The translations under genes and the position numbers were made by a program. From a phage, in assembly GCA_037574385.1 (NCBI GenBank), contig GCA_037574385.1_4529.1: a DNA stretch of 64,000 bases; one strand, 5' to 3'. Each line of letters opens with the position of its first letter. Position 1 is the first letter of the stretch. Shown one piece after another: positions 1 through 16,954 of this stretch. Below the pieces are notes generated by a model that was not told the origin of the DNA, did no database searches, and saw nothing but the letters and a program-made list of their open reading frames with translations.

Positions 1-33
1 GCTCATGCAATATATTGAATTTGCACGATCTTG

Positions 34-67
34 TAGGCCGGATAAGGCGTTCACGCCGCATCCGGCA
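34..67. repeat. REP-like palindromic unit (enterobacterial intergenic repeat)
   Basis: GC-rich imperfect palindrome gccggataaggcgttcacgccgcatccggc in host-like intergenic DNA. Confidence 0.5.
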
Positions 68-124
68 TGAATAAAGCGCACTTTGTCGACAAGTTAAATG
101 CCGGGTTTAATCCCGACATTATTT

Positions 125-1006
125 TTATCCAGCCACAAAACTCTCTTCAACACACTGAATAAAAGTGTGCATCGCCGGGCTAACCGCTTTTCCAGCATGG
201 TGTGCGCACATGGCCGTAATGGTCTGCGACTGTTCGCCAAAAGGCAATTCAATTAATTCTCCGCTCTCAAGCTCTTTTTCCACCGCAAAGCGGGGCAAGT
301 AACTGACACCGATATTCGCCGCGACACAACGTTTGATACTTTCAATGCTTAACAGCTCAATGGTGTTTTCCACCGTGATCCGCCGCTGACGCAGCGTGCT
401 CTCAAATATCTGCCGGAAGACACATTGCGGTTCGTTGATAATAAAGCTACAGGCGTTATGTCTTCCCGGCTCAGTAAAATCGACATCTGCAATTTGCGGT
501 GAAGCCACCAGCACCAGCGATTGTTCACCCAACTCTCGTCGGTTCAGGGCATCATCATTCCCTACGCGATAAAAGACGCCGACATCGGCCTCATCATTCA
601 GTAGCGCATCACGGATCACGTAACAGTTCAGCGACTGCAACGATAAACGCACTTTTGGTGCGCGTTGCCGAAAACGCTGCAACACCTGCGGCATTCGGTA
701 AGAGAGCAACGTTTCGCCCGAAACAACGCGTAGTTCCCCGTCCGGATCTGACTCCTTTTTGGCAGCCTCACGAAGCGTATCCATCACTCGGGTAAGTTCA
801 TAAATGTGCGGCAGCAACTTTTTTCCTTCGCGGGTAAGGCACATCCGTCGGCCAATTTTCTCAAATAACTGGACTGAAAACTCCTGCTCAAGCTGCTGAA
901 TATGAAAAGTCACCGTCGATTGTGTACAGCACAATTTTTGCGAAGCTCGCAAAAAGGAACCCTCTTCCACCACGGTTTTAAGCGTAATAAAACGGCGCAG
1001 ATCCAT
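125..1006 (-). CDS. yfiE: LysR-family transcriptional regulator (start taken at MDLRRFITL, internal to the ORF-track ORF)
   Basis: N-terminal HTH (LRRFITLKTVVEEGSFLRASQKLCCTQSTV) plus LysR substrate-binding-like C-terminus; divergent from eamB as in E. coli; ~50% GC. Confidence 0.75.
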   Translation of the reverse strand: MDLRRFITLKTVVEEGSFLRASQKLCCTQSTVTFHIQQLEQEFSVQLFEKIGRRMCLTREGKKLLPHIYELTRVMDTLREAAKKESDPDGELRVVSGETLLSYRMPQVLQRFRQRAPKVRLSLQSLNCYVIRDALLNDEADVGVFYRVGNDDALNRRELGEQSLVLVASPQIADVDFTEPGRHNACSFIINEPQCVFRQIFESTLRQRRITVENTIELLSIESIKRCVAANIGVSYLPRFAVEKELESGELIELPFGEQSQTITAMCAHHAGKAVSPAMHTFIQCVEESFVAG

Positions 1007-1108
1007 AACCCCAAACCTATCGAAAATATCGAATCTAGAATATAAAAACATTCATTTTTTTAAATGTTCCGTGTCGGGTACTGTCTACCAAAACAGAGGA
1101 GATAACAA

Positions 1109-1696
1109 GTGACACCGACCCTTTTAAGTGCTTTTTGGACTTACACCCTGATTACCGCTATGACGCCAGGACCGAACAATATTCTCGCCCTTAGCTCTGC
1201 TACGTCGCATGGATTTCGTCAAAGTACCCGCGTGCTGGCAGGGATGAGTCTGGGATTTTTGATTGTGATGTTACTGTGTGCGGGCATTTCATTTTCACTG
1301 GCAGTGATTGACCCGGCAGCGGTACACCTTTTGAGTTGGGCGGGGGCGGCATATATTGTCTGGCTGGCGTGGAAAATCGCCACCAGCCCAACAAAGGAAG
1401 ACGGACTTCAGGCAAAACCAATCAGCTTTTGGGCCAGCTTTGCTTTGCAGTTTGTGAACGTCAAAATCATTTTGTACGGTGTTACGGCACTGTCGACGTT
1501 TGTTCTGCCGCAAACACAGGCGCTAAGCTGGGTAGTTGGCGTCAGCGTTTTGCTGGCGATGATTGGGACGTTTGGCAATGTGTGCTGGGCGCTGGCGGGG
1601 CATCTGTTTCAGCGATTGTTTCGCCAGTATGGTCGCCAGTTAAATATCGTGCTTGCCCTGTTGCTGGTCTATTGCGCGGTACGCATTTTCTATTAA
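1109..1696 (+). CDS. eamB: LysE/RhtB-family cysteine/O-acetylserine exporter EamB (YfiK), GTG start
   Basis: 195 aa multi-TM protein; sequence recognised as E. coli EamB; RBS GAGGAGA upstream. Confidence 0.85.
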   Translation: MTPTLLSAFWTYTLITAMTPGPNNILALSSATSHGFRQSTRVLAGMSLGFLIVMLLCAGISFSLAVIDPAAVHLLSWAGAAYIVWLAWKIATSPTKEDGLQAKPISFWASFALQFVNVKIILYGVTALSTFVLPQTQALSWVVGVSVLLAMIGTFGNVCWALAGHLFQRLFRQYGRQLNIVLALLLVYCAVRIFY

Positions 1697-1704
1697 CGAA
1701 AAAA

Positions 1705-1730
1705 AGCGGAAGAGGTCGCCCTCTTCCGCT
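1705..1730. terminator. Bidirectional rho-independent terminator between convergent eamB and grcA
   Basis: Perfect hairpin agcggaagagg-tcgc-cctcttccgct flanked by A-run and T-rich sequence. Confidence 0.6.
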
Positions 1731-1751
1731 TAGTAACTTGCTACTTAAGCC

Positions 1752-2114
1752 TTACAGGCTTTCAGTAAAGGTACGAGCGATAACGTCGCGCTGCTGTTCC
1801 GGAGTCAGAGAGTTAAAGCGAACTGCATAACCGGATACACGGATGGTCAGCTGCGGATATTTTTCCGGATGCTTAACTGCATCTTCCAGAGTTTCGCGAC
1901 GCAGAACGTTAACGTTCAGGTGTTGACCACCTTCAATTTTAACTTTAGGTTGATGTTCAATTTCAATTTCACGGGCATTCAAACCGTAGAAAATTTCTGG
2001 GTCTACAATAGCGTCTTCTTTAAAAGCCTTAGAGACAATAATCCGGGCTTGAGTACCGTCTTCAAAATAAATAGTGCCTTTATGTGCACCTTCAAGAATT
2101 TGATATGCTTTCAT
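1752..2114 (-). CDS. grcA: Autonomous glycyl-radical cofactor GrcA/YfiD family; chimeric: C-terminal half host-type, N-terminal half phage-type (T4 Y06I-like)
   Basis: C-terminus [59 protein letters not shown] matches E. coli GrcA with glycyl-radical motif RVSGY; N-terminal 58 aa diverged and encoded by AT-rich DNA. Confidence 0.8.
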
Positions 2115-3138: not shown

Positions 3139-3468
3139 TTATACTCTAGGCTTTTGAGCTTGTTTGGTATTGGATTCCCACGCTGCTTTGGTAATTTTGT
3201 TAGCGGCATAGCCAAAGGCATTAGATAGAACACCTTTAGAGTTGAATACATCCAATCCAATAAGTACACCGGCTGCGTTAAATTTAGGAGCAAAGTACGC
3301 ATTAGTTTTAGAAAGAGCTTTTTTCAATTCAGGGTCTTGAACCAAGCCATCAAAAACGCCTTTACTATTTACTTTATATGTTACTTTGGGATTTTTACCT
3401 TCTTCGATAGCAGCTTTCTGTTCCGCAGATAATGTAACTTCAGTGATAAACTCTTGATATGTTTTCAT
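3139..3468 (-). CDS. Capsid-targeted internal protein candidate (CTS-bearing), 109 aa
   Basis: N-terminus MKTYQEFITE matches the T4 internal-protein capsid-targeting sequence (MKTYQEFIAE). Confidence 0.6.
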   Translation of the reverse strand: MKTYQEFITEVTLSAEQKAAIEEGKNPKVTYKVNSKGVFDGLVQDPELKKALSKTNAYFAPKFNAAGVLIGLDVFNSKGVLSNAFGYAANKITKAAWESNTKQAQKPRV

Positions 3469-3509
3469 ATGTTTCCTTTAAATGTAAATAGGCCTAAGTA
3501 TAGGCCTTA

Positions 3510-4088
3510 TTAATTACCACGGGCTGCATTAGCAACGGCGTAAGCGTACTGAACATTAGCGTCTTTAAACGTACCTTTAGAGGTATCTATTTCTGCCTTA
3601 AAGCCGCCTTTAGCCATAACATCGGCAAATTCTTTACGGAAAGCCATTGCGTCAAGACCTTTCCATGATGATTTATGCTTGGCAAATTCAAGACCAGCGT
3701 AGTTGACAGCTTTAGCCAATTTATTATCAATGACCCATTTACCTGCTTTAGGCACAAACTTCGGGCCTTTTTGTTTAGAGAACAGTTTTAAATTCCAGCG
3801 ACGAAGGTCACTGTCGGCTTTAACAAAAGCTGCGTCTAAGTTACTAGCAACAACATCTTCAATATGAGCAAATTTAAGACCATCAACTTCAATATTTAGA
3901 TCGTTACGCCAGCGAAGTCCTTCCCAAGCGAAGGCTTTAAAGTCGGAAGCCTTTGTAGCTAAGTACCGTTCAATAGGAGCAGTTTTAGGGTCAAAGCCGT
4001 TTCCGCCACGATAATTCCACTCGTCCTTATTAATGCCTTGGACTTTTCCTGCAAAGGCCTCGGCGATAAATTCTTTATATGTTTTCAT
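3510..4088 (-). CDS. Capsid-targeted internal protein candidate, 192 aa (size of T4 IPIII); start at internal MKTYKEFIAEA
   Basis: CTS MKTYKEFIAE preceded by RBS AAGGAAAC; ORF-track ORF extends 14 codons upstream. Confidence 0.6.
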   Translation of the reverse strand: MKTYKEFIAEAFAGKVQGINKDEWNYRGGNGFDPKTAPIERYLATKASDFKAFAWEGLRWRNDLNIEVDGLKFAHIEDVVASNLDAAFVKADSDLRRWNLKLFSKQKGPKFVPKAGKWVIDNKLAKAVNYAGLEFAKHKSSWKGLDAMAFRKEFADVMAKGGFKAEIDTSKGTFKDANVQYAYAVANAARGN

Positions 4089-4153: not shown

Positions 4154-4414
4154 TTAAGCTTTACCGCCAGAAATAATTCCGAAGTTGTTAAAATCGTATC
4201 CAATATCGTCAGCATCTACTTTAGGGCTTGCTACAACATAAGCAATTTCACGACGTTTTGCATAGGTGTTGATTTCTTTACCATCGCCACCTAAGAAAGA
4301 ATACCCATTACGTTTTAATGAGCCAAAGTCTTCGGCATCACCAACGAAAGCTTTAACTTTAAATTTGGGGTCTTTGGCATCTGCTTCAGTGATAAATTCT
4401 TGATACATTTTCAT
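4154..4414 (-). CDS. Capsid-targeted internal protein candidate, 86 aa; start at internal MKMYQEFITEA
   Basis: CTS-like N-terminus MKMYQEFITE with RBS AAGGAAAAA; immediately downstream of denV. Confidence 0.6.
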   Translation of the reverse strand: MKMYQEFITEADAKDPKFKVKAFVGDAEDFGSLKRNGYSFLGGDGKEINTYAKRREIAYVVASPKVDADDIGYDFNNFGIISGGKA

Positions 4415-4893: not shown

Positions 4894-5175
4894 CTATTTT
4901 TCTGAAGCGCCTGAAATATATTTTTCAAGACGTTGTTTCATCAGCGAGCCGTTCTTAGCGATTTCTTCCGGTTTATCGCACATACGCAACAAGGCTTCAA
5001 GCTTAACGATATCGCTGGTACGTTCAAATTTGCGAGTATCTATCTTACTAGCAAGTTCAGAAATACGTGCTAATAGACTTTCAGCTTCAACCAAAGCTGC
5101 ACCTAGCTTAGTTGCAAATGTGTCAGTAGCTTCGTTAAGAATAGATTCTGATAAAAATTCACTATATGTTTTCAT
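4894..5175 (-). CDS. Capsid-targeted internal protein candidate, 93 aa; start at [10 protein letters not shown]
   Basis: CTS-like N-terminus; its ATG overlaps the TGA stop of gene e (ATGA coupling); sits at the T4 ipII/ipIII position. Confidence 0.6.
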
Positions 5176-6153: not shown

Positions 6154-6379
6154 CTCGGTCCCATGATTTGGCCATTAATTCGGACATAAATTCTTCAATG
6201 CGTGTTTCTTTAGATGGACTTTCACTATTAGAGACCGCAAGTTTGTAATCTGCAATAGGACGGAACAAATCAAGGTCCATATTAAGATCGTCTTTGATTT
6301 TTTCTTCTGACACATCTTTATCATATGTGTACAGATAACTATCACACGATTCTGATTTAATGTAAATTGCTATACTCAT
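6143..6379 (-). CDS. Hypothetical small acidic protein (start at second ATG, SD AGGAA)
   Basis: ORF with RBS; ATG overlaps upstream stop. Confidence 0.4.
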   Translation of the reverse strand: MSIAIYIKSESCDSYLYTYDKDVSEEKIKDDLNMDLDLFRPIADYKLAVSNSESPSKETRIEEFMSELMAKSWDRDDE

Positions 6380-6867
6380 CTCAAATTCCTGCATTCGGTA
6401 ATAAAACGTTCAACTTCATTATTCTTGGCCTTTATCTTGTCTTTACGTTCCTGTAAACTACTTTTAACAAGATTAATAATGATGCCTATAGTACCTCCAC
6501 CAATAATACCACCAATAATACTTACGATAGTAGATGCTAATAATATAGCGATAATATCTGGTATGGCAAAGGCACTTACTTTAGTACTAAAAAACCATAC
6601 CGACGGTACAAATATAATCCATCCTGTTATCCATTGGCACTTATTGAAAAACTTTTCAAGCTCAGCTTGAGTTGTTCGTATTACTTCATCGATAGGTTGA
6701 TATCCATTAATGTATCTGTTCACGATAATACCTGCTGGTTGGTCGATTTTAAATTCTTGACAAATACGTTTCACTAAGTAGGATGGACATCCTGTCCAAT
6801 CTACTGAATAGTACGAAATACCTTCATTACCGTCGTCTATATTAGACCAATATGTTTTGTTAATCAT
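6376..6867 (-). CDS. Hypothetical membrane protein (163 aa)
   Basis: Long hydrophobic, Gly/Ile-rich segment WITGWIIFVPSVWFF...IVSIIGGIIGGGTIGIIINLV. Confidence 0.5.
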   Translation of the reverse strand: MINKTYWSNIDDGNEGISYYSVDWTGCPSYLVKRICQEFKIDQPAGIIVNRYINGYQPIDEVIRTTQAELEKFFNKCQWITGWIIFVPSVWFFSTKVSAFAIPDIIAILLASTIVSIIGGIIGGGTIGIIINLVKSSLQERKDKIKAKNNEVERFITECRNLR

Positions 6868-7553
6868 TACCAGCCTTCCATAGGGAATTCCAGATAAACT
6901 TGAGCATTGACACGAATTTCATTGGTAATCTTTTTAACTCGGTCTGTATTACGAGATACACGTCCGAACCAACGCCATCCATTACTAATTGCACGAGAAC
7001 CAGTGTGCCATGTTTGCCAATCAAACTGAAGAAGAGTACGGTCTGGAGCTTCCCATTTCTCTAGTTCACCTTTTTCAATTTTTTCGAGGACTTCTTTGTG
7101 CCACTGGCGATAGATAAGTTCGCCATCAGGAATCTGACTGAACTCTGCAGTTCCTGTTGCAAAATGAGTAGGACACACGTCAGCGTTAACAAGGCCAAGA
7201 ATATGTTCAGACAAATAGCGAGGATTGTCATAATCAGGTTGTCCTGCAGTAATAAAATGTTGACCAACCGGAATATCCGGACGTGGTACATCGTCATGGT
7301 GATAACCTGGGATAGCAGGGTACCAACCAGGCATCAGCATGTGGACTCGTGAATCAAATACTACATCCGAGCCTTTCCAATCGTCAGGGAGATTTTGGAT
7401 AAAGCTACGAGTAATTGGACCGCCGTTATCCCAAGCAAAACTCAAATCACAGTTAAAGAACATTTGTTCATTTTTGATTTGGTCATTTTGTACGTTATGA
7501 GCAAAACCACCTACTGCACGAGCTTGACTATTAAACACTTTAGAACTATTCAT
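6867..7553 (-). CDS. Hypothetical protein (228 aa), no recognisable motif
   Basis: Long ORF in hyperplastic region; His/Asp-rich patches (HHDD, PTHFATG). Confidence 0.5.
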   Translation of the reverse strand: MNSSKVFNSQARAVGGFAHNVQNDQIKNEQMFFNCDLSFAWDNGGPITRSFIQNLPDDWKGSDVVFDSRVHMLMPGWYPAIPGYHHDDVPRPDIPVGQHFITAGQPDYDNPRYLSEHILGLVNADVCPTHFATGTAEFSQIPDGELIYRQWHKEVLEKIEKGELEKWEAPDRTLLQFDWQTWHTGSRAISNGWRWFGRVSRNTDRVKKITNEIRVNAQVYLEFPMEGW

Positions 7554-7554
7554 A

Positions 7555-7860
7555 TTATTTTCCTCGGCATTCTTTAATGAAATTTTCTAGATTGGTAGAT
7601 TCAATAGCTTTTTTACGAGCTTCTGCATGTTCTTCTTCAGACAATTTACATTTATAATTAACCCAGACGTTATGGTCAAAACTAGTCGTGGCATATAATA
7701 ACAAAGCCCCGACGAATAATAAAAATGGTGATAAGAATACAAAACCAGGAACACCATCCATATTGTAAGCCTTTTGTAATACTGCAACAGAAAGAGCTGC
7801 ATAAAAAGGCGATGCAAATATTGTAAAAAGACCAATTCGGTTGGTTTCGCCTAATTTCAT
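7555..7860 (-). CDS. Hypothetical small membrane protein (101 aa)
   Basis: Two predicted TM helices; RBS GAGGAGAAT; follows an early promoter. Confidence 0.5.
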   Translation of the reverse strand: MKLGETNRIGLFTIFASPFYAALSVAVLQKAYNMDGVPGFVFLSPFLLFVGALLLYATTSFDHNVWVNYKCKLSEEEHAEARKKAIESTNLENFIKECRGK

Positions 7861-7888
7861 AATATTCTCCTCATGTTTTAATAGGACT

Positions 7889-7918
7889 ACTATAACATAG
7901 TCCTATAATTGTGTAAAC
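7889..7918 (-). promoter_or_regulatory. T4-type early promoter embedded in a 9-bp inverted repeat (PeSL-like cassette)
   Basis: Minus strand GTTTAC-N18-TGTTATAGT; -10 lies within palindrome ATAGGACTA..TAGTCCTAT; near-identical copies at ~9184 and ~15870. Confidence 0.55.
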
Positions 7919-7930
7919 GGTTTTGTGAAA

Positions 7931-9167: not shown

Positions 9168-9183
9168 TTAATTTGATAGGACT

Positions 9184-9213
9184 ACTATAACATAGCCCTA
9201 TCTTGTTGTAAAC
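9184..9213 (-). promoter_or_regulatory. T4-type early promoter within palindromic cassette
   Basis: GTTTAC-N18-TATAGT on minus strand; palindrome gataggactactataacatagccctatc. Confidence 0.55.
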
Positions 9214-9706: not shown

Positions 9707-10012
9707 TTAGCACAACGCAGAAGACGAAACCCAAGCACCTTCAGTAATAACGTAACCATTACCTTCACGCTTAACGTCGCCACCATTATTTTCAATTTCA
9801 TCTTTCATCCACTGGGATACGATTTCACCCTTAGGATAATAAGTACGACCGCTACCATAATCACCTACAGAAAATGATACGGCGTATTGGTCTGCGATCT
9901 TTGTTGCTTCTTCTTCGATACGTTCAGCTTGATTCAGAAGTTTATAAATTGCATCTGAAGCGGATTTGGCATCATTAAACTCTGGTACTTTAATTTCAAT
10001 AATCTTACTCAT
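9707..10012 (-). CDS. Small protein, member 3 of tandem paralog triplet (101 aa)
   Basis: C-terminus ...EGAWVSSSALC; N-terminus MSKIIEIKVPE. Confidence 0.5.
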   Translation of the reverse strand: MSKIIEIKVPEFNDAKSASDAIYKLLNQAERIEEEATKIADQYAVSFSVGDYGSGRTYYPKGEIVSQWMKDEIENNGGDVKREGNGYVITEGAWVSSSALC

Positions 10013-10071
10013 TTTCTACATTCCTTAATAAAGTTTTCGATTGTTTCATTTTCACGTCTAGCTAGGAGTTC

Positions 10072-10101
10072 ATTATAACTAATCATTTGAGAAGCGTAAA
10101 C
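10072..10101 (-). promoter_or_regulatory. T4-type early promoter (GTTTAC-N18-TATAAT) upstream of the paralog triplet
   Basis: Consensus -35 GTTTAC and perfect -10 TATAAT on minus strand in the 10013-10110 gap. Confidence 0.55.
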
Positions 10102-10110
10102 AGCATAAAT

Positions 10111-10503
10111 TCAGTTCAGGCTTTTGCATCTTATTTCCTTAACGAATTCCATAGCTTCTTCATATTCATACTTTTTAACAGCTTCATCATACTGAGCTTG
10201 GGCTTTTGCGCACTGAACTTTCCATTCTCTTAATCGGGCTCTGTGATGACGGCCTTGGTGCCAATATCCTACCCAATTAATAGGCATTAATAAAAACGGT
10301 ACAATAAGTGGTGCGACGAACATTAATGAAAACGCTGCATCAGACGATATAACTTTATTGGAATCTAAAATAGCTCCTATAATCATAAAGATTAAAAATG
10401 CTAAAGCTAAAATAGGACCAAATAGTACTTCATTTGGGATTAATTTACGCTTGTATTCATACGCCCAGGGCTTACTTGGCATGTATAGGGTTGGCTTTGA
10501 CAT
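10111..10503 (-). CDS. Hypothetical membrane protein (start uncertain; ORF-track ORF extends to 10533)
   Basis: Two hydrophobic helices (ILALAFLIFMIIGAIL, FSLMFVAPLIVPFLLMPI). Confidence 0.45.
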   Translation of the reverse strand: MSKPTLYMPSKPWAYEYKRKLIPNEVLFGPILALAFLIFMIIGAILDSNKVISSDAAFSLMFVAPLIVPFLLMPINWVGYWHQGRHHRARLREWKVQCAKAQAQYDEAVKKYEYEEAMEFVKEIRCKSLN

Positions 10504-11095
10504 ATTCTCTACATTCCATAATAAATTGCTCAAGGATTAAATTGTTAGTGAAATTAGGACTAACAACCATGGTTTCATAAAGAGCATCAATAGCACTTAA
10601 AGCATCAACTCTTTTAAGCAAAGGCTTGCCTTCATACATAGTTTCAGAATCGACGATTAACGTAAAGTAATATTTTTTGTTATCGACTAGAACTTCAGTA
10701 TCGATATAAAACATGTTAGACCTTAAGAGCTTATCTCTAAAACCATAATAATCTTCAGAGCGTTCGCTGATATATTCCCATTCGGTGTTTAAACAACAAA
10801 CAGACCACGTAGGAGCAACGAAATCAGTGAATCTAATATCATGGTCTGCAACTAGTTTAGCAATAGCTCCGATATCATGAATCATAATACCTGGGGCTAA
10901 TAAAGATTTTCTGCTATGGCTAGCCGTTTTCTCAGTTGTCTCATAAGAAGACGACCAGTACCATTTACGTCCAGTTGCAACATATCGTAATGAATCAACT
11001 AAAGACGTAGGTGGATTTACCTTATCTCGGAACTCTTCGAACATTGAGTCAATATCATTATTTTGGTTTCGCATGTTAACTCCTTTATTATCCAA
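10472..11095 (-). CDS. Hypothetical protein (207 aa)
   Basis: ORF with RBS AAGGAG; preceded by terminator hairpin. Confidence 0.5.
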   Translation of the reverse strand: MDNKGVNMRNQNNDIDSMFEEFRDKVNPPTSLVDSLRYVATGRKWYWSSSYETTEKTASHSRKSLLAPGIMIHDIGAIAKLVADHDIRFTDFVAPTWSVCCLNTEWEYISERSEDYYGFRDKLLRSNMFYIDTEVLVDNKKYYFTLIVDSETMYEGKPLLKRVDALSAIDALYETMVVSPNFTNNLILEQFIMECREYVKANPIHAK

Positions 11096-12883: not shown

Positions 12884-13447
12884 TTATTTACCTAGTTTAG
12901 TTATTATAGCTTCGGCAGCAGCTTTTAGCTTAGATGCAGTGTTAATACGATTTTTAATTTCGGTATACGCATCGCCAAGAACATCAAGGCTATCAGAATA
13001 AACACTTACACTATTGCGTTCGCTATTTGAAATAGAACCTTTAGTTTTACGATCAAAATCAGTGTACACGTCTTGAAGATCACGGGCTGCCTTCTTTGCA
13101 TCATCCAATGCGTCAAGAGCTTTATTCAAAGCATTGACATATTTTTTAGTGTCAAACATATTCTTAGAAATTTTAACAGGTGCACGTTCAGGAGTAGCTA
13201 AGGCGGATTTAGGAACCTGTGTGCCAGCTGCCAGTTTCTTAGAAATTTTGAAAAACGCTTTATTGAAACTATTTTCTTGACTCATCGTAAAAGAACTAGT
13301 ATCGATGTTATACATTTCAATAGCTTTAGCTTTCCACTTAAGAAAATCGCCACGGTCTTTTGGATCCAAGTTGAAGAATACTTTAGTAAGATCTGCTTCA
13401 GATGGTAATTTTGCTGCTTCGGTTAAAAATTCGGCATAGGTTTTCAT
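12884..13447 (-). CDS. Capsid-targeted internal protein candidate (187 aa) beside the tRNA cluster
   Basis: N-terminus MKTYAEFLTEA (CTS-like); Lys/Ala-rich. Confidence 0.55.
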   Translation of the reverse strand: MKTYAEFLTEAAKLPSEADLTKVFFNLDPKDRGDFLKWKAKAIEMYNIDTSSFTMSQENSFNKAFFKISKKLAAGTQVPKSALATPERAPVKISKNMFDTKKYVNALNKALDALDDAKKAARDLQDVYTDFDRKTKGSISNSERNSVSVYSDSLDVLGDAYTEIKNRINTASKLKAAAEAIITKLGK

Positions 13448-14995: not shown

Positions 14996-15286
14996 TCACC
15001 GCACCATATTAATGTAATTATATTCAATACAACGTAATTTCAAAGGATTCTTGAAAATATTGTATTCAAGAGGGCCTTTTTCTGTTTCAATAAAGAAATC
15101 AAAGTTAACTGTGTTAAATTTACCGTCTTCACAGAGTAATTTAACTTGCGAAGATGAACGGTCGATATAAACCTTTTCAACCTCAAAGTTAGTCAGAATA
15201 CCATAGTCATTAACTAGTGCTTTAGCTGCACGTTGATCGCTTTCGTATCCATTCTCAATAGATGACACTTTAGCATAAAGAATCAT
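14996..15286 (-). CDS. Hypothetical protein (96 aa)
   Basis: ORF; ATGA overlap with upstream gene. Confidence 0.45.
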   Translation of the reverse strand: MILYAKVSSIENGYESDQRAAKALVNDYGILTNFEVEKVYIDRSSSQVKLLCEDGKFNTVNFDFFIETEKGPLEYNIFKNPLKLRCIEYNYINMVR

Positions 15287-15646: not shown

Positions 15647-15853
15647 TTACTCACCTTTTGCAATTTTATCCATAACGATAGCGATTAAGCCGATTAGAAA
15701 TGCTACTACCAATGAGATAGAATTTTCGGTTGTTGTCAGTAGTCCACAAATGAATCCTACAAACATCGAAAAACTAAAAGCCATTGAAGCAATTACTACA
15801 GCAACATTACGAATCAGTTCAGCGCGTTTCATTTTATTTCTCCATTTACTCAT
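15647..15853 (-). CDS. Hypothetical small membrane protein (68 aa)
   Basis: Two hydrophobic helices; follows an early promoter. Confidence 0.45.
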   Translation of the reverse strand: MSKWRNKMKRAELIRNVAVVIASMAFSFSMFVGFICGLLTTTENSISLVVAFLIGLIAIVMDKIAKGE

Positions 15854-15869
15854 TTCGTTTTGATAGGAC

Positions 15870-15899
15870 TACTATAACATAGTCCTATCAGCATGTAAA
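15870..15899 (-). promoter_or_regulatory. T4-type early promoter within palindromic cassette
   Basis: GTTTAC-N18-TATAGT; palindrome gataggactactataacatagtcctatc, identical to the copy at ~7881. Confidence 0.55.
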
Positions 15900-15903
15900 C
15901 TAC

Positions 15904-16191
15904 TTACAGAAGAGTTTTTGCAATAATTTTAAGCTGAGCTACAGAAATATGCTTAGCTTTAAACAGTGCAGTCTCTTCAGCCGGAGAGATAACAATAGTA
16001 GCGCCGTCTTTCTTAGCAGACCATCCATCCCCTAAGTAAACAGTACCTTTTACTTCTTCGCCATCAACCAGACTAATCATTGGTTTACCCTCACGTCCTT
16101 TATTTGCTTTAATAACTTCAGAAGTAAGGGTTGCTTCGGTCAGAGTAGAAACGTTAGCAACAGGTGATATAAATTCTTTATAGGTTTTCAT
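15904..16191 (-). CDS. ipI: Internal protein I (IPI-like; in T4 an inhibitor of GmrSD type IV restriction)
   Basis: 95 aa, CTS MKTYKEFIS; central region matches recalled T4 IPI (SEVIKANKG.EGKPMISLVDGEE.KGTVYLGDGWSAKKDGATIVISPAEETALF); beside 57B as in T4. Confidence 0.75.
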   Translation of the reverse strand: MKTYKEFISPVANVSTLTEATLTSEVIKANKGREGKPMISLVDGEEVKGTVYLGDGWSAKKDGATIVISPAEETALFKAKHISVAQLKIIAKTLL

Positions 16192-16225
16192 TTTATTTCC
16201 TTGAGGTTGTTTATTTGATAGGATG

Positions 16226-16255
16226 ATAGTATCACACCATCATCCTTATGTAAAC
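16226..16255 (-). promoter_or_regulatory. T4-type early promoter upstream of ipI
   Basis: GTTTAC-N18-TACTAT; variant palindrome ggatgat..atcatcc. Confidence 0.5.
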
Positions 16256-16268
16256 TGTTTTGTGAAAA

Positions 16269-16954
<686 letters not shown>

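What the first reader, a model, noticed from the sequence alone, without database searches (positions are those of the whole stretch)
6376..7860. Several small membrane proteins behind early promoters: candidate exclusion or immunity factors
Four small predicted membrane proteins (6376..6867, 7555..7860, 10111..10503, 15647..15853) are scattered through the early region, two of them directly behind palindromic early-promoter cassettes. In T4, small early membrane proteins (Imm, Sp) mediate superinfection exclusion; these may do the same or act as spanins, holin modulators or defence inhibitors.
Basis: inference. Interest (0 to 1): 0.35.

Follow-up and report, generated by a model that had tools for sequence, protein, structure and literature searches.

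The report
Known T-even early membrane proteins, shared tail
The four small membrane proteins are real, but they are already-annotated accessory genes of T4/RB69-type phages (e.2, RB69ORF133c, e.4, tRNA.4) of unknown function and unrelated to the known exclusion proteins. Three of them share a conserved C-terminal peptide with their neighbours e.3 and e.5, which gives a way to look for a common partner.

Summary
Two of them (7555-7860 and 15647-15832) sit directly behind repeated promoter-plus-hairpin cassettes of the published PeSL type. The four are orthologues of T4 e.2, RB69ORF133c, T4 e.4 and T4 tRNA.4. These were already annotated as predicted membrane proteins, and the T4 copies showed no fitness effect in a genome-wide knock-down screen.

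They show no similarity to Imm, Sp, holin, antiholins or spanins. Relatives of this phage carry their own imm and sp genes elsewhere. All four look like N-in/C-in hairpins with only 5-10 residues facing the periplasm, so exclusion is neither supported nor excluded, and a spanin role is rejected.

The new point is a C-terminal motif, [F/W]-[I/V]-x-x-C-R. It is shared by e.2, ORF133c, e.4 (degenerate), the e.3 remnant and the soluble e.5. It occurs nowhere else in the window or in 126 kb of T4, it persists in distant homologues, and its Arg and Cys codons vary synonymously.

My best reading is that these are membrane-anchored adaptors showing one common cytoplasmic docking peptide. The main rival is that the motif is a by-product of the downstream gene's ribosome-binding site. 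The function remains unknown.

The parts
7873..7924 (-). PeSL-type early promoter cassette in front of the ORF133c homologue: -35 TTTACA at 7917-7912, extended -10 TGtTATAGT ending at 7889, and a 9-10 bp hairpin at 7881-7906 that overlaps the -10 box.
   Evidence: (repeat families D1/D2); concept from PMC2839356
7555..7860 (-). RB69ORF133c homologue, 101 aa. It has two TM segments (9-28 and 37-58) and a 43-aa charged cytoplasmic tail ending LENFIKECRGK. The family is restricted to Mosigvirus-type phages.
   Evidence: PHROG 9798, E 1e-67; 150 records; related to TM2 plus tail of e.2: 14.8 bits, 0/2000 shuffles
6867..7553 (-). RB69ORF132c homologue, a 228-aa soluble protein of unknown function. 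It is translationally coupled to ORF133c upstream and to e.2 downstream (TAAtATG and TAATG junctions). A homologue sits next to e.2 in distant relatives as well.
   Evidence: (PHROG 1843); no Pfam, PDB or PADLOC hit
6376..6867 (-). T4 e.2 homologue (Pfam Phage_T4_Y06M, PHROG 2203), 163 aa. It has a ~78-aa N-terminal soluble domain, two TM segments (79-99 and 105-133) and a 30-aa basic tail ending VERFITECRNLR.
   Evidence: (E 5e-56)
6388..6405 (-). Codons of the shared C-terminal motif F-I-T-E-C-R in e.2. The equivalent motif codons lie at 7564-7581 (ORF133c), 10015-10032 (e.3 remnant), 10129-10146 (e.4, FVKEIR) and 10508-10525 (e.5).
10111..10503 (-). T4 e.4 homologue (PHROG 2604), 130 aa. 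It has two TM segments (26-46 and 57-78) and a 52-aa cytoplasmic tail ending MEFVKEIRCKSLN. Its start codon lies inside the 3' end of e.5, and the start codon of e.3 lies inside its own 3' end.
10012..10110 (-). Remnant of e.3. Relative to RB69 (intact, 119 aa, two TM segments), about 258 nt are deleted. The 3' end that remains still encodes ...ENFIKECRK* and carries an internal promoter, TTTACG-17-TATAAT (10100-10072).
10472..11074 (-). T4 e.5 homologue, 200 aa and soluble (no TM segment). It carries the same motif (LEQFIMECREYVK...) 11 residues before its stop codon. The motif region is the most conserved part of the family.
   Evidence: (PHROG 2607)
15647..15832 (-). T4 tRNA.4 homologue (PHROG 1692), 61 aa and 84% identical to T4. 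It has two TM segments (9-29 and 38-57), an 8-residue loop and no tail motif. It is the first gene behind the cassette and is unrelated to the e.2-e.5 set.
   Evidence: (944 records)
15855..15906 (-). PeSL-type early promoter cassette in front of tRNA.4: TTTACA-17-TATAGT at 15899-15871 and a 12-bp hairpin at 15863-15888.

Best explanation
The four ORFs are orthologues of accessory early genes of T-even phages: e.2 (6376-6867), RB69ORF133c (7555-7860), e.4 (10111-10503) and tRNA.4 (15647-15832). This identification is shown.

Each is predicted to be a helical hairpin in the inner membrane with both ends in the cytoplasm and a periplasmic loop of only 5-10 residues. This is inferred from hydropathy and charge distribution, not tested.

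Three of them, together with the neighbouring e.3 (deleted here) and the soluble e.5, end in the same short amphipathic peptide, [F/W]-[I/V]-x-x-C-R, preceded by a charged helix. This is shown. The peptide is kept by selection on the protein, which I infer from codon usage and from its retention in distant homologues.

The mechanism I think most likely is that e.2, ORF133c, e.3 and e.4 are membrane anchors that display a common docking or oligomerisation peptide at the cytoplasmic face of the inner membrane. e.5 would carry the same peptide to reach the same partner or the same assembly. The set would therefore act together, from the inside of the membrane, as a conditional host-takeover or accessory module, not as a periplasm-facing block to incoming phage. 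The partner and the phenotype are unknown. tRNA.4 is a separate, more widely conserved 61-aa hairpin with no functional clue.
For: Identity:
- 12 kb of the region is 96-97.5% identical to RB69 and phiC120.
- The gene-by-gene correspondence is given.
- PHROG E-values are 1e-32 to 1e-68.
- T4 e.4 and trna.4 map by tblastn to 10503-10120 and 15832-15650.

Membrane hairpins:
- There are two hydropathy peaks in exactly these four of the 35 genes. K+R residues sit on the N- and C-sides and the loops are nearly uncharged.
- AlphaFold gives two long helices for e.2, at low confidence.

Shared tail:
- A six-frame scan finds the motif within 15 residues of a stop only in e.2, ORF133c, the e.3 remnant, e.4 and e.5 in the 64-kb window, and only in e.2-e.5 in 126.5 kb of T4.
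- The motif residues are invariant columns within each family across Tequatro-, Mosig- and Gaprivervirus.
- Similarity between families is confined to the tail: hhalign E-values are 2e-5 to 8e-7, and the e.2 HMM scores 14.8 bits against ORF133c with 0 of 2000 shuffles reaching that.
- Distant e.2 homologues from a search of 1.84 billion proteins all end in [FW]I-x-x-CR[KN].
- In distant contigs the motif also ends other soluble proteins of the same region.

Selection on the protein:
- Across the 31 loose-pattern matches tallied (a few are probably chance hits), Cys is coded TGT 10 times and TGC 11 times, and Arg is coded AGA 13, AGG 5, CGA 4 and CGT 6 times.
- The position of the Shine-Dalgarno sequence shifts while the peptide stays fixed.

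Accessory role:
- The T4 orthologues are scored 'Not Fit' in CRISPRi-ART (PMC11879866 supplement).
- e.3 is deleted here and e.2 is truncated in T4.
Against: - No partner, localisation or phenotype is known. No dedicated topology predictor was available.
- Both structure models are of low confidence (pLDDT 55-56), and the tails are the least confident parts.
- The motif always lies just upstream of the next gene's ATG: the Arg codon ends between -1 and +11 nt from it in nearly all cases. Its K-E, K-G or Arg codons supply that gene's Shine-Dalgarno sequence, so part of the conservation may be at the RNA level.
- In e.4 the Cys is displaced or absent, because the e.3 start codon sits there.
- The e.2 HMM does not detect e.4. 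The link to e.4 runs only through e.3.
- Knocking down the T4 orthologues has no effect in the laboratory, so nothing yet shows that the set does anything measurable.
Confidence: 0.45

Rival explanations
1. The shared C-terminal peptide is a by-product of gene junctions. On this view the conserved DNA/RNA stretch (about TTYATTAARGAATGYAGR) is the translation-initiation region of the next, translationally coupled gene, inherited through tandem duplication of gene-plus-junction units. The proteins need not share any function or partner.
For: - The motif is positioned relative to the next ATG, not relative to its own stop codon. In e.5 it lies 11 codons before the stop and in e.4 five codons before it, because the next gene starts inside.
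- AAGGA, GAGGA or AGGAA within the motif codons sits 5-11 nt upstream of each downstream ATG.
- A 22-nt DNA repeat, 91% identical, links the e.3 and e.5 junctions (family D12).
- e.3 and e.4 also share their first codons, M-x-K-P-x-L.
Against: - Arg is encoded by both the AGR and CGN codon families and Cys by TGT and TGC about equally, while the amino acids stay fixed.
- The Shine-Dalgarno sequence moves between the K-E codons and the Arg codon, and the ATG offset changes reading-frame phase, yet the peptide does not move.
- Distant e.2 homologues vary the two middle residues (KE, KG, KM, KD, KR, TE, EE) but keep F/W, I, C and R.
- The sequence is not a general T-even initiation region. It occurs nowhere else in the window or in 126 kb of T4.
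Confidence: 0.25
2. One reading: the proteins are superinfection-exclusion or immunity factors that alter the envelope so that DNA from a second T-even phage cannot enter, as Imm and Sp do.
For: - They are small, expressed from early promoters, located in the inner membrane and dispensable for single infections. That is the same profile as imm and sp, which are listed as non-essential ('NO') in the same supplementary table.
- They lie in a hyperplastic accessory region rich in PeSL cassettes.
Against: - There is no similarity to Imm or Sp or to any exclusion family in PHROGs.
- Relatives of this phage already encode Imm and Sp orthologues.
- Only 5-10 residues would face the periplasm, and the conserved parts (the e.2 N-domain and the tails) are cytoplasmic.
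- e.3 is deleted here, and e.2 is truncated in T4, without known consequence.
Confidence: 0.12
3. The proteins take part in lysis control (pinholin-like, antiholin or holin modulators). The argument rests on their class II holin-like build and their linkage to the endolysin gene e.
For: - They have two TM segments, an N-in/C-in topology and a highly charged C-terminal tail. From my own knowledge, that matches the textbook class II holin architecture.
- ORF133c, ORF132c, e.2, ORF130c, nudE and e form one tight gene string behind the promoter at 7917-7889.
Against: - The promoters are sigma70-type early promoters, whereas holins are late genes.
- T-even lysis is accounted for by t, rI, rIII and pseT.2/pseT.3, which lie elsewhere and have no similarity to these proteins.
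- The best holin PHROG hit has E = 0.48.
- Knock-down of the T4 orthologues has no effect. In the same supplementary table, t and e are listed as essential for lysis.
Confidence: 0.08
4. The ORFs are chance open frames, not genes.
For: None beyond their small size.
Against: - Each is conserved as an intact ORF in 150-944 phage records.
- Each has its own PHROG family.
- Each has a Shine-Dalgarno sequence or a coupled start codon.
- Their amino-acid conservation is accompanied by synonymous codon variation.
Confidence: 0.01

Closest known systems
T4 e.2 / e.3 / e.4 and RB69ORF133c (Pfam Phage_T4_Y06M and sister families; PHROGs 2203, 2330, 2604, 9798)
   Same: They are direct orthologues. The gene order upstream of nudE and e is the same, the architecture is the same, and the public records already carry the annotation 'conserved hypothetical, predicted membrane protein'.
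   Different: Nothing differs about the genes themselves. This phage has lost most of e.3. The shared tail motif did not turn up in the few papers I could search.
T4 Imm (superinfection immunity) and Sp (spackle)
   Same: They are small, early and non-essential, and they are associated with the envelope. Imm also has two TM segments (sequence).
   Different: There is no sequence similarity. Sp is a secreted periplasmic protein with a signal peptide. The proteins here expose almost nothing to the periplasm and carry conserved cytoplasmic tails. Imm and Sp orthologues exist separately in related phages.
Class II holins / pinholins (for example phage 21 S; from my own knowledge)
   Same: Two TM segments, both ends in the cytoplasm, a charged C-terminal tail and a size of 60-130 aa.
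   Different: These genes have early rather than late promoters. There is no family match. T-even phages use the unrelated T holin. The T4 orthologues showed no fitness effect in the knock-down screen.
Bacterial small membrane-protein regulators (MgrB, AcrZ, MgtS type; from my own knowledge)
   Same: They are short hairpin or single-pass inner-membrane proteins thought to act by binding larger partners. This is the closest model for how these proteins might work.
   Different: Those regulators are host-encoded, have no shared C-terminal peptide and are not sequence-related. The comparison is an analogy only.
PeSL cassettes of T4-type phages (Arbiol et al. 2010, PMC2839356; Comeau et al. 2014, PMC4122927)
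   Same: They are repeated ~50-100-nt intergenic units with a strong sigma70-like promoter, a stem-loop overlapping the -10 box, then a Shine-Dalgarno sequence and ATG, placed in front of accessory ORFs in hyperplastic regions.
   Different: The stem here is AT-rich (TAGGACTA/TAGTCCTA), not the GGGG...CCCC type described for RB49 and phi1. RB69-type phages are not mentioned in those two papers.
C-terminal amphipathic membrane-targeting or docking helices (MinD and FtsA membrane-targeting sequences; from my own knowledge)
   Same: The tail is a short terminal amphipathic helix with basic flanks. Its hydrophobic moment is 0.49-0.69 over 11 residues. It is present on both a soluble protein and membrane proteins.
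   Different: The invariant Cys and Arg point to specific recognition, not generic lipid binding. No experimental link exists.

Membership tests
T4 e.2 family (PHROG 2203; Pfam PF26896 Phage_T4_Y06M) | Significant profile match over the full length | tested here: met
   PHROG 2203 matches with E = 4.6e-56 over residues 1-161. All homologues carry a precomputed PF26896 assignment. The local Pfam copy lacks this model.
T4 e.2 family (PHROG 2203; Pfam PF26896 Phage_T4_Y06M) | Position upstream of nudE and e, on the same strand | tested here: met
T4 e.4 family (PHROG 2604) | Profile match, and a position between e.5 and e.3 with overlapping start and stop codons | tested here: met
   PHROG 2604 matches with E = 5e-64. 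The protein is 53% identical to T4 e.4. The overlaps are shown.
T4 tRNA.4 family (PHROG 1692) | Profile match, and a position as the first gene of the tRNA.4-tRNA.3-tRNA.2 string downstream of ipI | tested here: met
   PHROG 1692 matches with E = 1e-32. The protein is 84% identical to T4. Gene order is shown.
RB69ORF133c family (PHROG 9798) | Profile match and the same position as in RB69 | tested here: met
   PHROG 9798 matches with E = 1e-67. The protein is 96% identical to RB69ORF133c. Position is shown.
Imm (T4 superinfection immunity) | Sequence similarity to T4 Imm | tested here: not met
   The best phmmer --max score is 4.6 bits (E = 0.07 in a database of 19 sequences). The e.2 HMM scores 0.5 bits against Imm. 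There is no Imm-like stretch in the window.
Imm (T4 superinfection immunity) | Blocks DNA entry of superinfecting T-even phage | not testable with these tools
   This needs plasmid expression followed by phage challenge.
Sp (spackle) | N-terminal signal peptide, a soluble periplasmic domain, and sequence similarity to T4 Sp | tested here: not met
   There is no similarity. None of the four has a cleavable signal peptide followed by a soluble domain. All have two TM segments with cytoplasmic soluble parts.
Spanins (Rz/Rz1, PseT.3/PseT.2, u-spanin) | Either a lipobox lipoprotein, or one N-terminal TM segment followed by a long periplasmic coiled coil | tested here: not met
   There is no lipobox. 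Each has two TM segments and periplasmic loops of 5-10 residues. There is no similarity to T4 PseT.2 or PseT.3.
Class II holins | Two TM segments, N-in/C-in topology and a charged C-terminus | tested here: inconclusive
   The architecture fits by hydropathy and charge, but many non-holin proteins share it. The best holin PHROG hit has E = 0.48.
Class II holins | Late expression and timed hole formation | tested here: not met
   The genes lie behind sigma70-type early promoters. Hole formation itself cannot be tested here.
PeSL cassettes | A repeated intergenic unit consisting of a sigma70-like promoter, a stem-loop, a Shine-Dalgarno sequence and an ATG, placed in front of accessory ORFs | tested here: met
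   the definition comes from PMC2839356. Promoter and terminator activity were not tested.

The most novel reading that the evidence does not exclude
e.5, e.4, e.3, e.2 and ORF133c, plus further soluble proteins of the same region in more distant T4-like phages, would form one previously unrecognised tail-tagged set. In it, unrelated protein bodies, both membrane-anchored and soluble, are all addressed by the same C-terminal peptide [F/W]-[I/V]-x-x-C-R to a single partner or assembly at the cytoplasmic face of the inner membrane. A more exotic variant is not excluded: the peptide could act while still nascent, on the ribosome that has just reached the next gene's start codon, to tune translational coupling.
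Probability: 0.35. Interest if true: 0.55.

Novelty: already known. Interest (0 to 1): 0.33.

Why it matters
Taken alone, the finding adds little. These ORFs have been annotated as predicted membrane proteins in T4 and RB69 for about twenty years, and their function is still unknown.

What may matter is the shared tail. More than 100 small early T-even genes remain without a function (the "monkey wrenches" of PMC6071114), and single knock-outs of them are usually silent. A peptide common to five adjacent gene families suggests they are redundant or cooperating parts of one module. That would explain the silent single knock-downs. It also gives a concrete handle: one peptide for pull-downs, one block deletion, and three residues to mutate.

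If a host partner were found, it would open a new piece of T-even host takeover. If instead the motif turns out to be only an embedded ribosome-binding site, it becomes a tidy example of dual coding that mimics a protein motif.

Tried and rejected
- **Family searches.** Pfam, NCBIfam, PADLOC and PDB sequence searches of the four proteins, ORF132c, e.5 and e.6 gave nothing above noise.
- **e.6 as a PspA-like coiled coil.** This could have linked it to small membrane proteins, but there is no Pfam or PDB support and I dropped the idea.
- **AlphaFold of e.2** (52-sequence alignment). Mean pLDDT was 54.6 and the model shows only two long helices. It was too poor for a fold search.
- **AlphaFold of e.5.** Mean pLDDT was 55.7 and pTM 0.55.
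  - Foldseek against the PDB gave no significant hit. The top matches were small alarmone synthetases and nucleotidyltransferases, at E = 0.02 and TM-score 0.23, which I treat as noise.
  - Foldseek against BFVD matched only uncharacterised proteins of T4-like phages.
- **Wider homologue searches.**
  - An IMG/VR scan with the e.4 profile found only 8 loci, all from the same three genera.
  - An exhaustive HMM search with the e.2 profile found only 22 clusters among 1.84 billion proteins. This is a narrow phage family with no cellular relatives.
- **Literature.** Searches by gene name were mostly noise. Neither the CRISPRi-ART nor the HIDEN-SEQ main text mentions these genes.
- **Resemblance to the capsid-targeting sequence.** The tail (E-N-F-I-K-E) resembles the N-terminal capsid-targeting sequence of internal proteins (M-K-T-Y-x-E-F-I-x-E) and contains an I-x-E site of the prohead protease type. 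I considered this and rejected it as coincidence. Distant e.2 homologues lose the Glu but keep Cys-Arg, and these are early membrane proteins.
- **Motif-mediated deletion of e.3.** The deletion end points are not at the motif.
Full report
**What the window is.** From about position 1745 onward the window is the genome of an RB69-like T4-type phage (genus Mosigvirus). The 12 kb around the finding is 97.5% identical to phage phiC120 and 96.3% to RB69. All genes between 1.7 and 17.7 kb lie on the minus strand. They run from the tail-fibre chaperone, 57B and ipI region, through the tRNA genes and the "e.x" genes, to nudE and the lysozyme gene e.

**Check of the observation.** The four ORFs exist as described.
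- A Kyte-Doolittle scan (19-residue window, threshold 1.6) finds two strong hydrophobic segments in each of them. It finds none in the other 31 minus-strand genes of the region.
- Two of the four lie directly behind a repeated cassette. A ~50-nt unit with TTTACA-17-TATAGT and the palindrome ATAGGACTATGTTATAGTAGTCCTAT occurs three times: at 7881-7906, 9176-9201 and 15863-15888. None is expected by chance. A fourth cassette at 16210-16261 has a different palindrome.
- The hairpins are stable, at -13 to -19 kcal/mol with z-scores down to -4.6.
- These are PeSL-type cassettes: promoter plus stem-loop plus Shine-Dalgarno sequence in front of accessory ORFs. They were described for T4-type phages by Arbiol et al. 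(PMC2839356) and extended to the T-even subgroup by Comeau et al. (PMC4122927).
- The other two ORFs (e.2 and e.4) are internal, translationally coupled operon members.
- One correction: the tRNA.4 homologue most likely starts at 15832 (61 aa), behind a GGAG, as in T4 and RB69.

**Identity of the four ORFs.**
- 6376-6867 is the e.2 homologue (PHROG 2203 "membrane protein", E = 5e-56; Pfam Phage_T4_Y06M on its homologues).
- 7555-7860 is RB69ORF133c (PHROG 9798).
- 10111-10503 is e.4 (PHROG 2604, 53% identical to T4).
- 15647-15832 is tRNA.4 (PHROG 1692, 84% identical to T4).
- By tblastn against 50,697 phage records, ORF133c is confined to 150 Mosigvirus-type records. e.2 and e.4 occur in about 680 records of the E. 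coli, Shigella and Yersinia T-evens. tRNA.4 occurs in 944 records, including Klebsiella and Kosakonia phages.
[quoted passage not shown] As objects, these are known.

- Unfiltered phmmer of the four proteins (plus RB69 e.3) against T4 Imm, Sp, T, RI, RI.1, RIII, PseT.2, PseT.3, Ac and other small T4 membrane proteins gives nothing above 5 bits.
- An HMM of 52 e.2 homologues scores Imm at 0.5 bits and Sp at -1.3 bits.
- PHROGs, Pfam, NCBIfam and PADLOC give only unknown-function families or noise.
- The window has no imm, sp, rI, rIII, t or pseT.3 homologue, as expected from its map position. Close relatives of this phage carry imm (64% identical to T4) and sp (66%) elsewhere.
- The known exclusion functions are therefore already present. 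These four proteins would be additional.

**Topology.** In all four, Lys and Arg cluster on the N-side of TM1 and the C-side of TM2. The connecting loops are 5-10 residues long with at most one basic residue. By the positive-inside rule they are N-in/C-in hairpins. The parts that could carry specificity would then face the cytoplasm: the 78-residue N-domain of e.2 and the tails of 30, 43 and 52 residues. This is an inference; I had no dedicated topology predictor. It argues against an Sp-like periplasmic mode of action and excludes spanins, since there is no lipobox and no periplasmic domain. It does not exclude an Imm-like effect within the membrane.

**The shared tail.** Reading the C-termini side by side showed a common ending:
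- e.2: ...VERFITECRNLR
- ORF133c: ...LENFIKECRGK
- e.4: ...MEFVKEIRCKSLN
- e.5 (soluble): ...LEQFIMECREYVKANPIHAK
- an untranslated remnant at 10012-10110: ...IENFIKECRK

The remnant is the 3' end of e.3. RB69 has an intact 119-aa, two-TM e.3, and this phage has lost about 258 nt of it.

The evidence that the motif is specific and conserved:
- A six-frame scan for the motif within 15 residues of a stop finds only these five places on the coding strand of the 64-kb window. In 126.5 kb of T4, covering all its early regions, it finds only e.2, e.3, e.4 and e.5.
- Within each family the motif residues are among the few invariant columns across Tequatrovirus, Mosigvirus and Gaprivervirus.
- Between families, profile comparisons detect only the tail. 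e.2 against e.3 gives E = 2e-5. e.3 against e.4 gives E = 8e-7 over 43 columns. ORF133c against e.2 and e.3 gives 6e-5 and 7e-6.
- The e.2 HMM aligns ORF133c over TM2 plus tail at 14.8 bits, which none of 2000 shuffles reaches. ORF133c therefore looks like a relative of the C-terminal half of e.2.
- An exhaustive search of 1.84 billion representative proteins with the e.2 profile finds only 22 clusters. The distant members end in FIKGCRK, WIKGCRK, FIKMCRNS, FIKDCRK or WIKRCRRD. The core is thus [F/W]-I-x-x-C-R.
- In contigs of such distant relatives the motif also ends the e.5-position protein and a ~100-aa soluble protein.
- tRNA.4 has no such tail and no relation to the set.

**Is the motif a peptide or a piece of RNA?** The motif always sits just upstream of the next gene's start. 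Its Arg codon ends between -1 and +11 nt from the next ATG in nearly all cases, and its K-E, K-G or Arg codons provide that gene's AAGGA, GAGGA or AGGAA. In e.5 and e.4 the protein runs on past the motif only because the next gene starts inside it. Part of the conservation could therefore be a dual-coding effect, and I keep this as the main rival. Four observations argue against it being the whole story:
- Arg is written AGA, AGG, CGA and CGT (13, 5, 4 and 6 times) and Cys TGT or TGC (10 and 11 times).
- The Shine-Dalgarno sequence shifts between codons and the ATG changes phase, while the peptide stays put.
- The middle residues vary freely in distant homologues.
- The sequence is not used at any other gene start in the window or in T4.

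I conclude, at roughly 60%, that the peptide itself is under selection. It is predicted helical, at low confidence. It is amphipathic, with F/L, F/W, I and C on one face and a hydrophobic moment of 0.49-0.69.

**Context.**
- The promoter at 7917-7889 heads a tight string of ORF133c, ORF132c, e.2, ORF130c, nudE and e.
- ORF132c is a 228-aa soluble protein with no family. It overlaps e.2 (TAATG), and a homologue sits immediately upstream of e.2 in Gaprivervirus and in distant metagenomic relatives. This suggests that the two work together.
- In T4 proper ORF132c is absent and e.2 is cut short by a stop after TM1. The tail is still readable in another frame. Many other Tequatroviruses keep e.2 intact.
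- The loss of e.3 here, and the truncation of e.2 in T4, show that individual members are dispensable.
- In the CRISPRi-ART screen of T4, e.2, e.3, e.4, e.5, e.6 and trna.4 are all scored "Not Fit" (PMC11879866, supplementary file 15).
- Many T4 immediate-early genes lie in deletable regions, and their products are regarded as conditional "monkey wrenches" (PMC6071114). I did not check that paper's map for this particular region.

**Most likely mechanism.**
- *Shown:* four conserved early genes encode proteins with two hydrophobic segments, and three of them, plus e.3 and e.5, share a specific C-terminal peptide.
- *Inferred:* the proteins are inner-membrane hairpins with cytoplasmic ends, and the peptide is selected as a peptide.
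- *Proposed:* the hairpins are anchors that display one docking or oligomerisation peptide at the inner face of the membrane. The soluble e.5 uses the same peptide to join the same partner or assembly. The block would then act as one partly redundant accessory module, which would also explain the silent single knock-downs.
- The partner and the phenotype are unknown.
- Probabilities: about 0.45 for this package; 0.25 for the junction by-product view; 0.12 for exclusion or immunity; 0.08 for lysis control.

**Novelty and score.** The finding as written concerns genes that are already annotated as predicted membrane proteins of unknown function. The promoter cassettes are a published element type. 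The tail motif did not come up in my limited literature search, and it makes the block experimentally approachable. It remains a sequence observation with a credible mundane rival. Interest is 0.33.

**Dead ends.**
- The structure models were too weak to use. pLDDT was 55-56, there was no significant PDB match, and BFVD matched only uncharacterised T4-like proteins.
- The idea that e.6 is PspA-like found no support.
- IMG/VR added no new genera.

Noticed in passing
window 1-1936 (junction zone 1745-1936): The first 1936 bases are 100% identical to the E. coli chromosome (yfiE, eamB and the 3' part of grcA), with GC 0.485. From 1745 onward the window is 97-98% identical to Mosigvirus phages. 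The two matches overlap inside the grcA-like phage gene (1752-2114, the T4 vs.6 homologue). This is either an assembly chimera through ~190 shared bases or a real host-phage recombinant.
   Followed up: partly
window 10012-10110: e.3 is deleted: about 258 nt are missing relative to RB69. What remains is its start codon fused out of frame and its last ~32 codons, which carry an internal sigma70-like promoter (10100-10072) for the downstream genes. phiC120 also lacks e.3.
   Followed up: yes
L003 (T4) 3480-3961: T4 e.2 (102 aa) ends at a stop after the first TM segment. The rest of the gene, including ...NFITECRKLK, is still readable in another frame before nudE. Shfl2 and many other Tequatroviruses have the intact 162-aa form.
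   Followed up: partly
window 6867-7553; L006 4234-4920; L019 5230-5919; L021 5439-6134: A soluble protein of ~229 aa with no family (RB69ORF132c type) always lies immediately upstream of e.2, abutting or overlapping it, in Mosigvirus, Gaprivervirus and distant metagenomic relatives. It is absent from T4. It may be a functional partner of e.2.
   Followed up: partly
L007 4466-5020; L017 5466-6020: The protein at the e.5 position in Gaprivervirus and Dhakavirus is only 17-21% identical to T4/RB69 e.5 over the body in the alignment, and BLASTP aligns only 7-10% of the query (58-69% identical there). It nevertheless keeps the tail LNRFIAECREYAK. Either the body has diverged beyond recognition or a different body carries the same tail.
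   Followed up: partly
window 3139-3468, 3510-4088, 4154-4414, 4894-5175, 12884-13447, 15904-16191: Six genes begin with M-K-T/M-Y-x-E-F-[IL]. From memory, this is the capsid-targeting sequence of T4 internal head proteins. Their start regions form a DNA repeat family (D3). This is an unusually large set of internal-protein genes flanking the e.x block.
   Followed up: no
window 16269-16724: This is the homologue of T4 57B, annotated 'RNA ligase' in RefSeq. From memory, it is the Acb1 anti-CBASS phosphodiesterase. I did not test this here.
   Followed up: no
window 14996-15286: This is the homologue of T4 trna.2. Trna.2 was one of only two T4 proteins enriched in pull-downs of the DRT1 defence protein (PMC13275509). 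It lies two genes downstream of tRNA.4 in the same string.
   Followed up: no
window 16210-16261: A fourth promoter cassette has the same flanks as the other three but a different palindrome (GGATGATGGTGTGATACTATCATCC). It lies in front of the ipI-like gene at 15904-16191.
   Followed up: partly
window 10472-11074 (e.5 model): The top Foldseek PDB matches of the low-confidence e.5 model are all nucleotidyltransferase-fold proteins (small alarmone synthetases RelP and SAS1, and JHP933). They are far below significance (E = 0.02, TM-score 0.23).
   Followed up: partly
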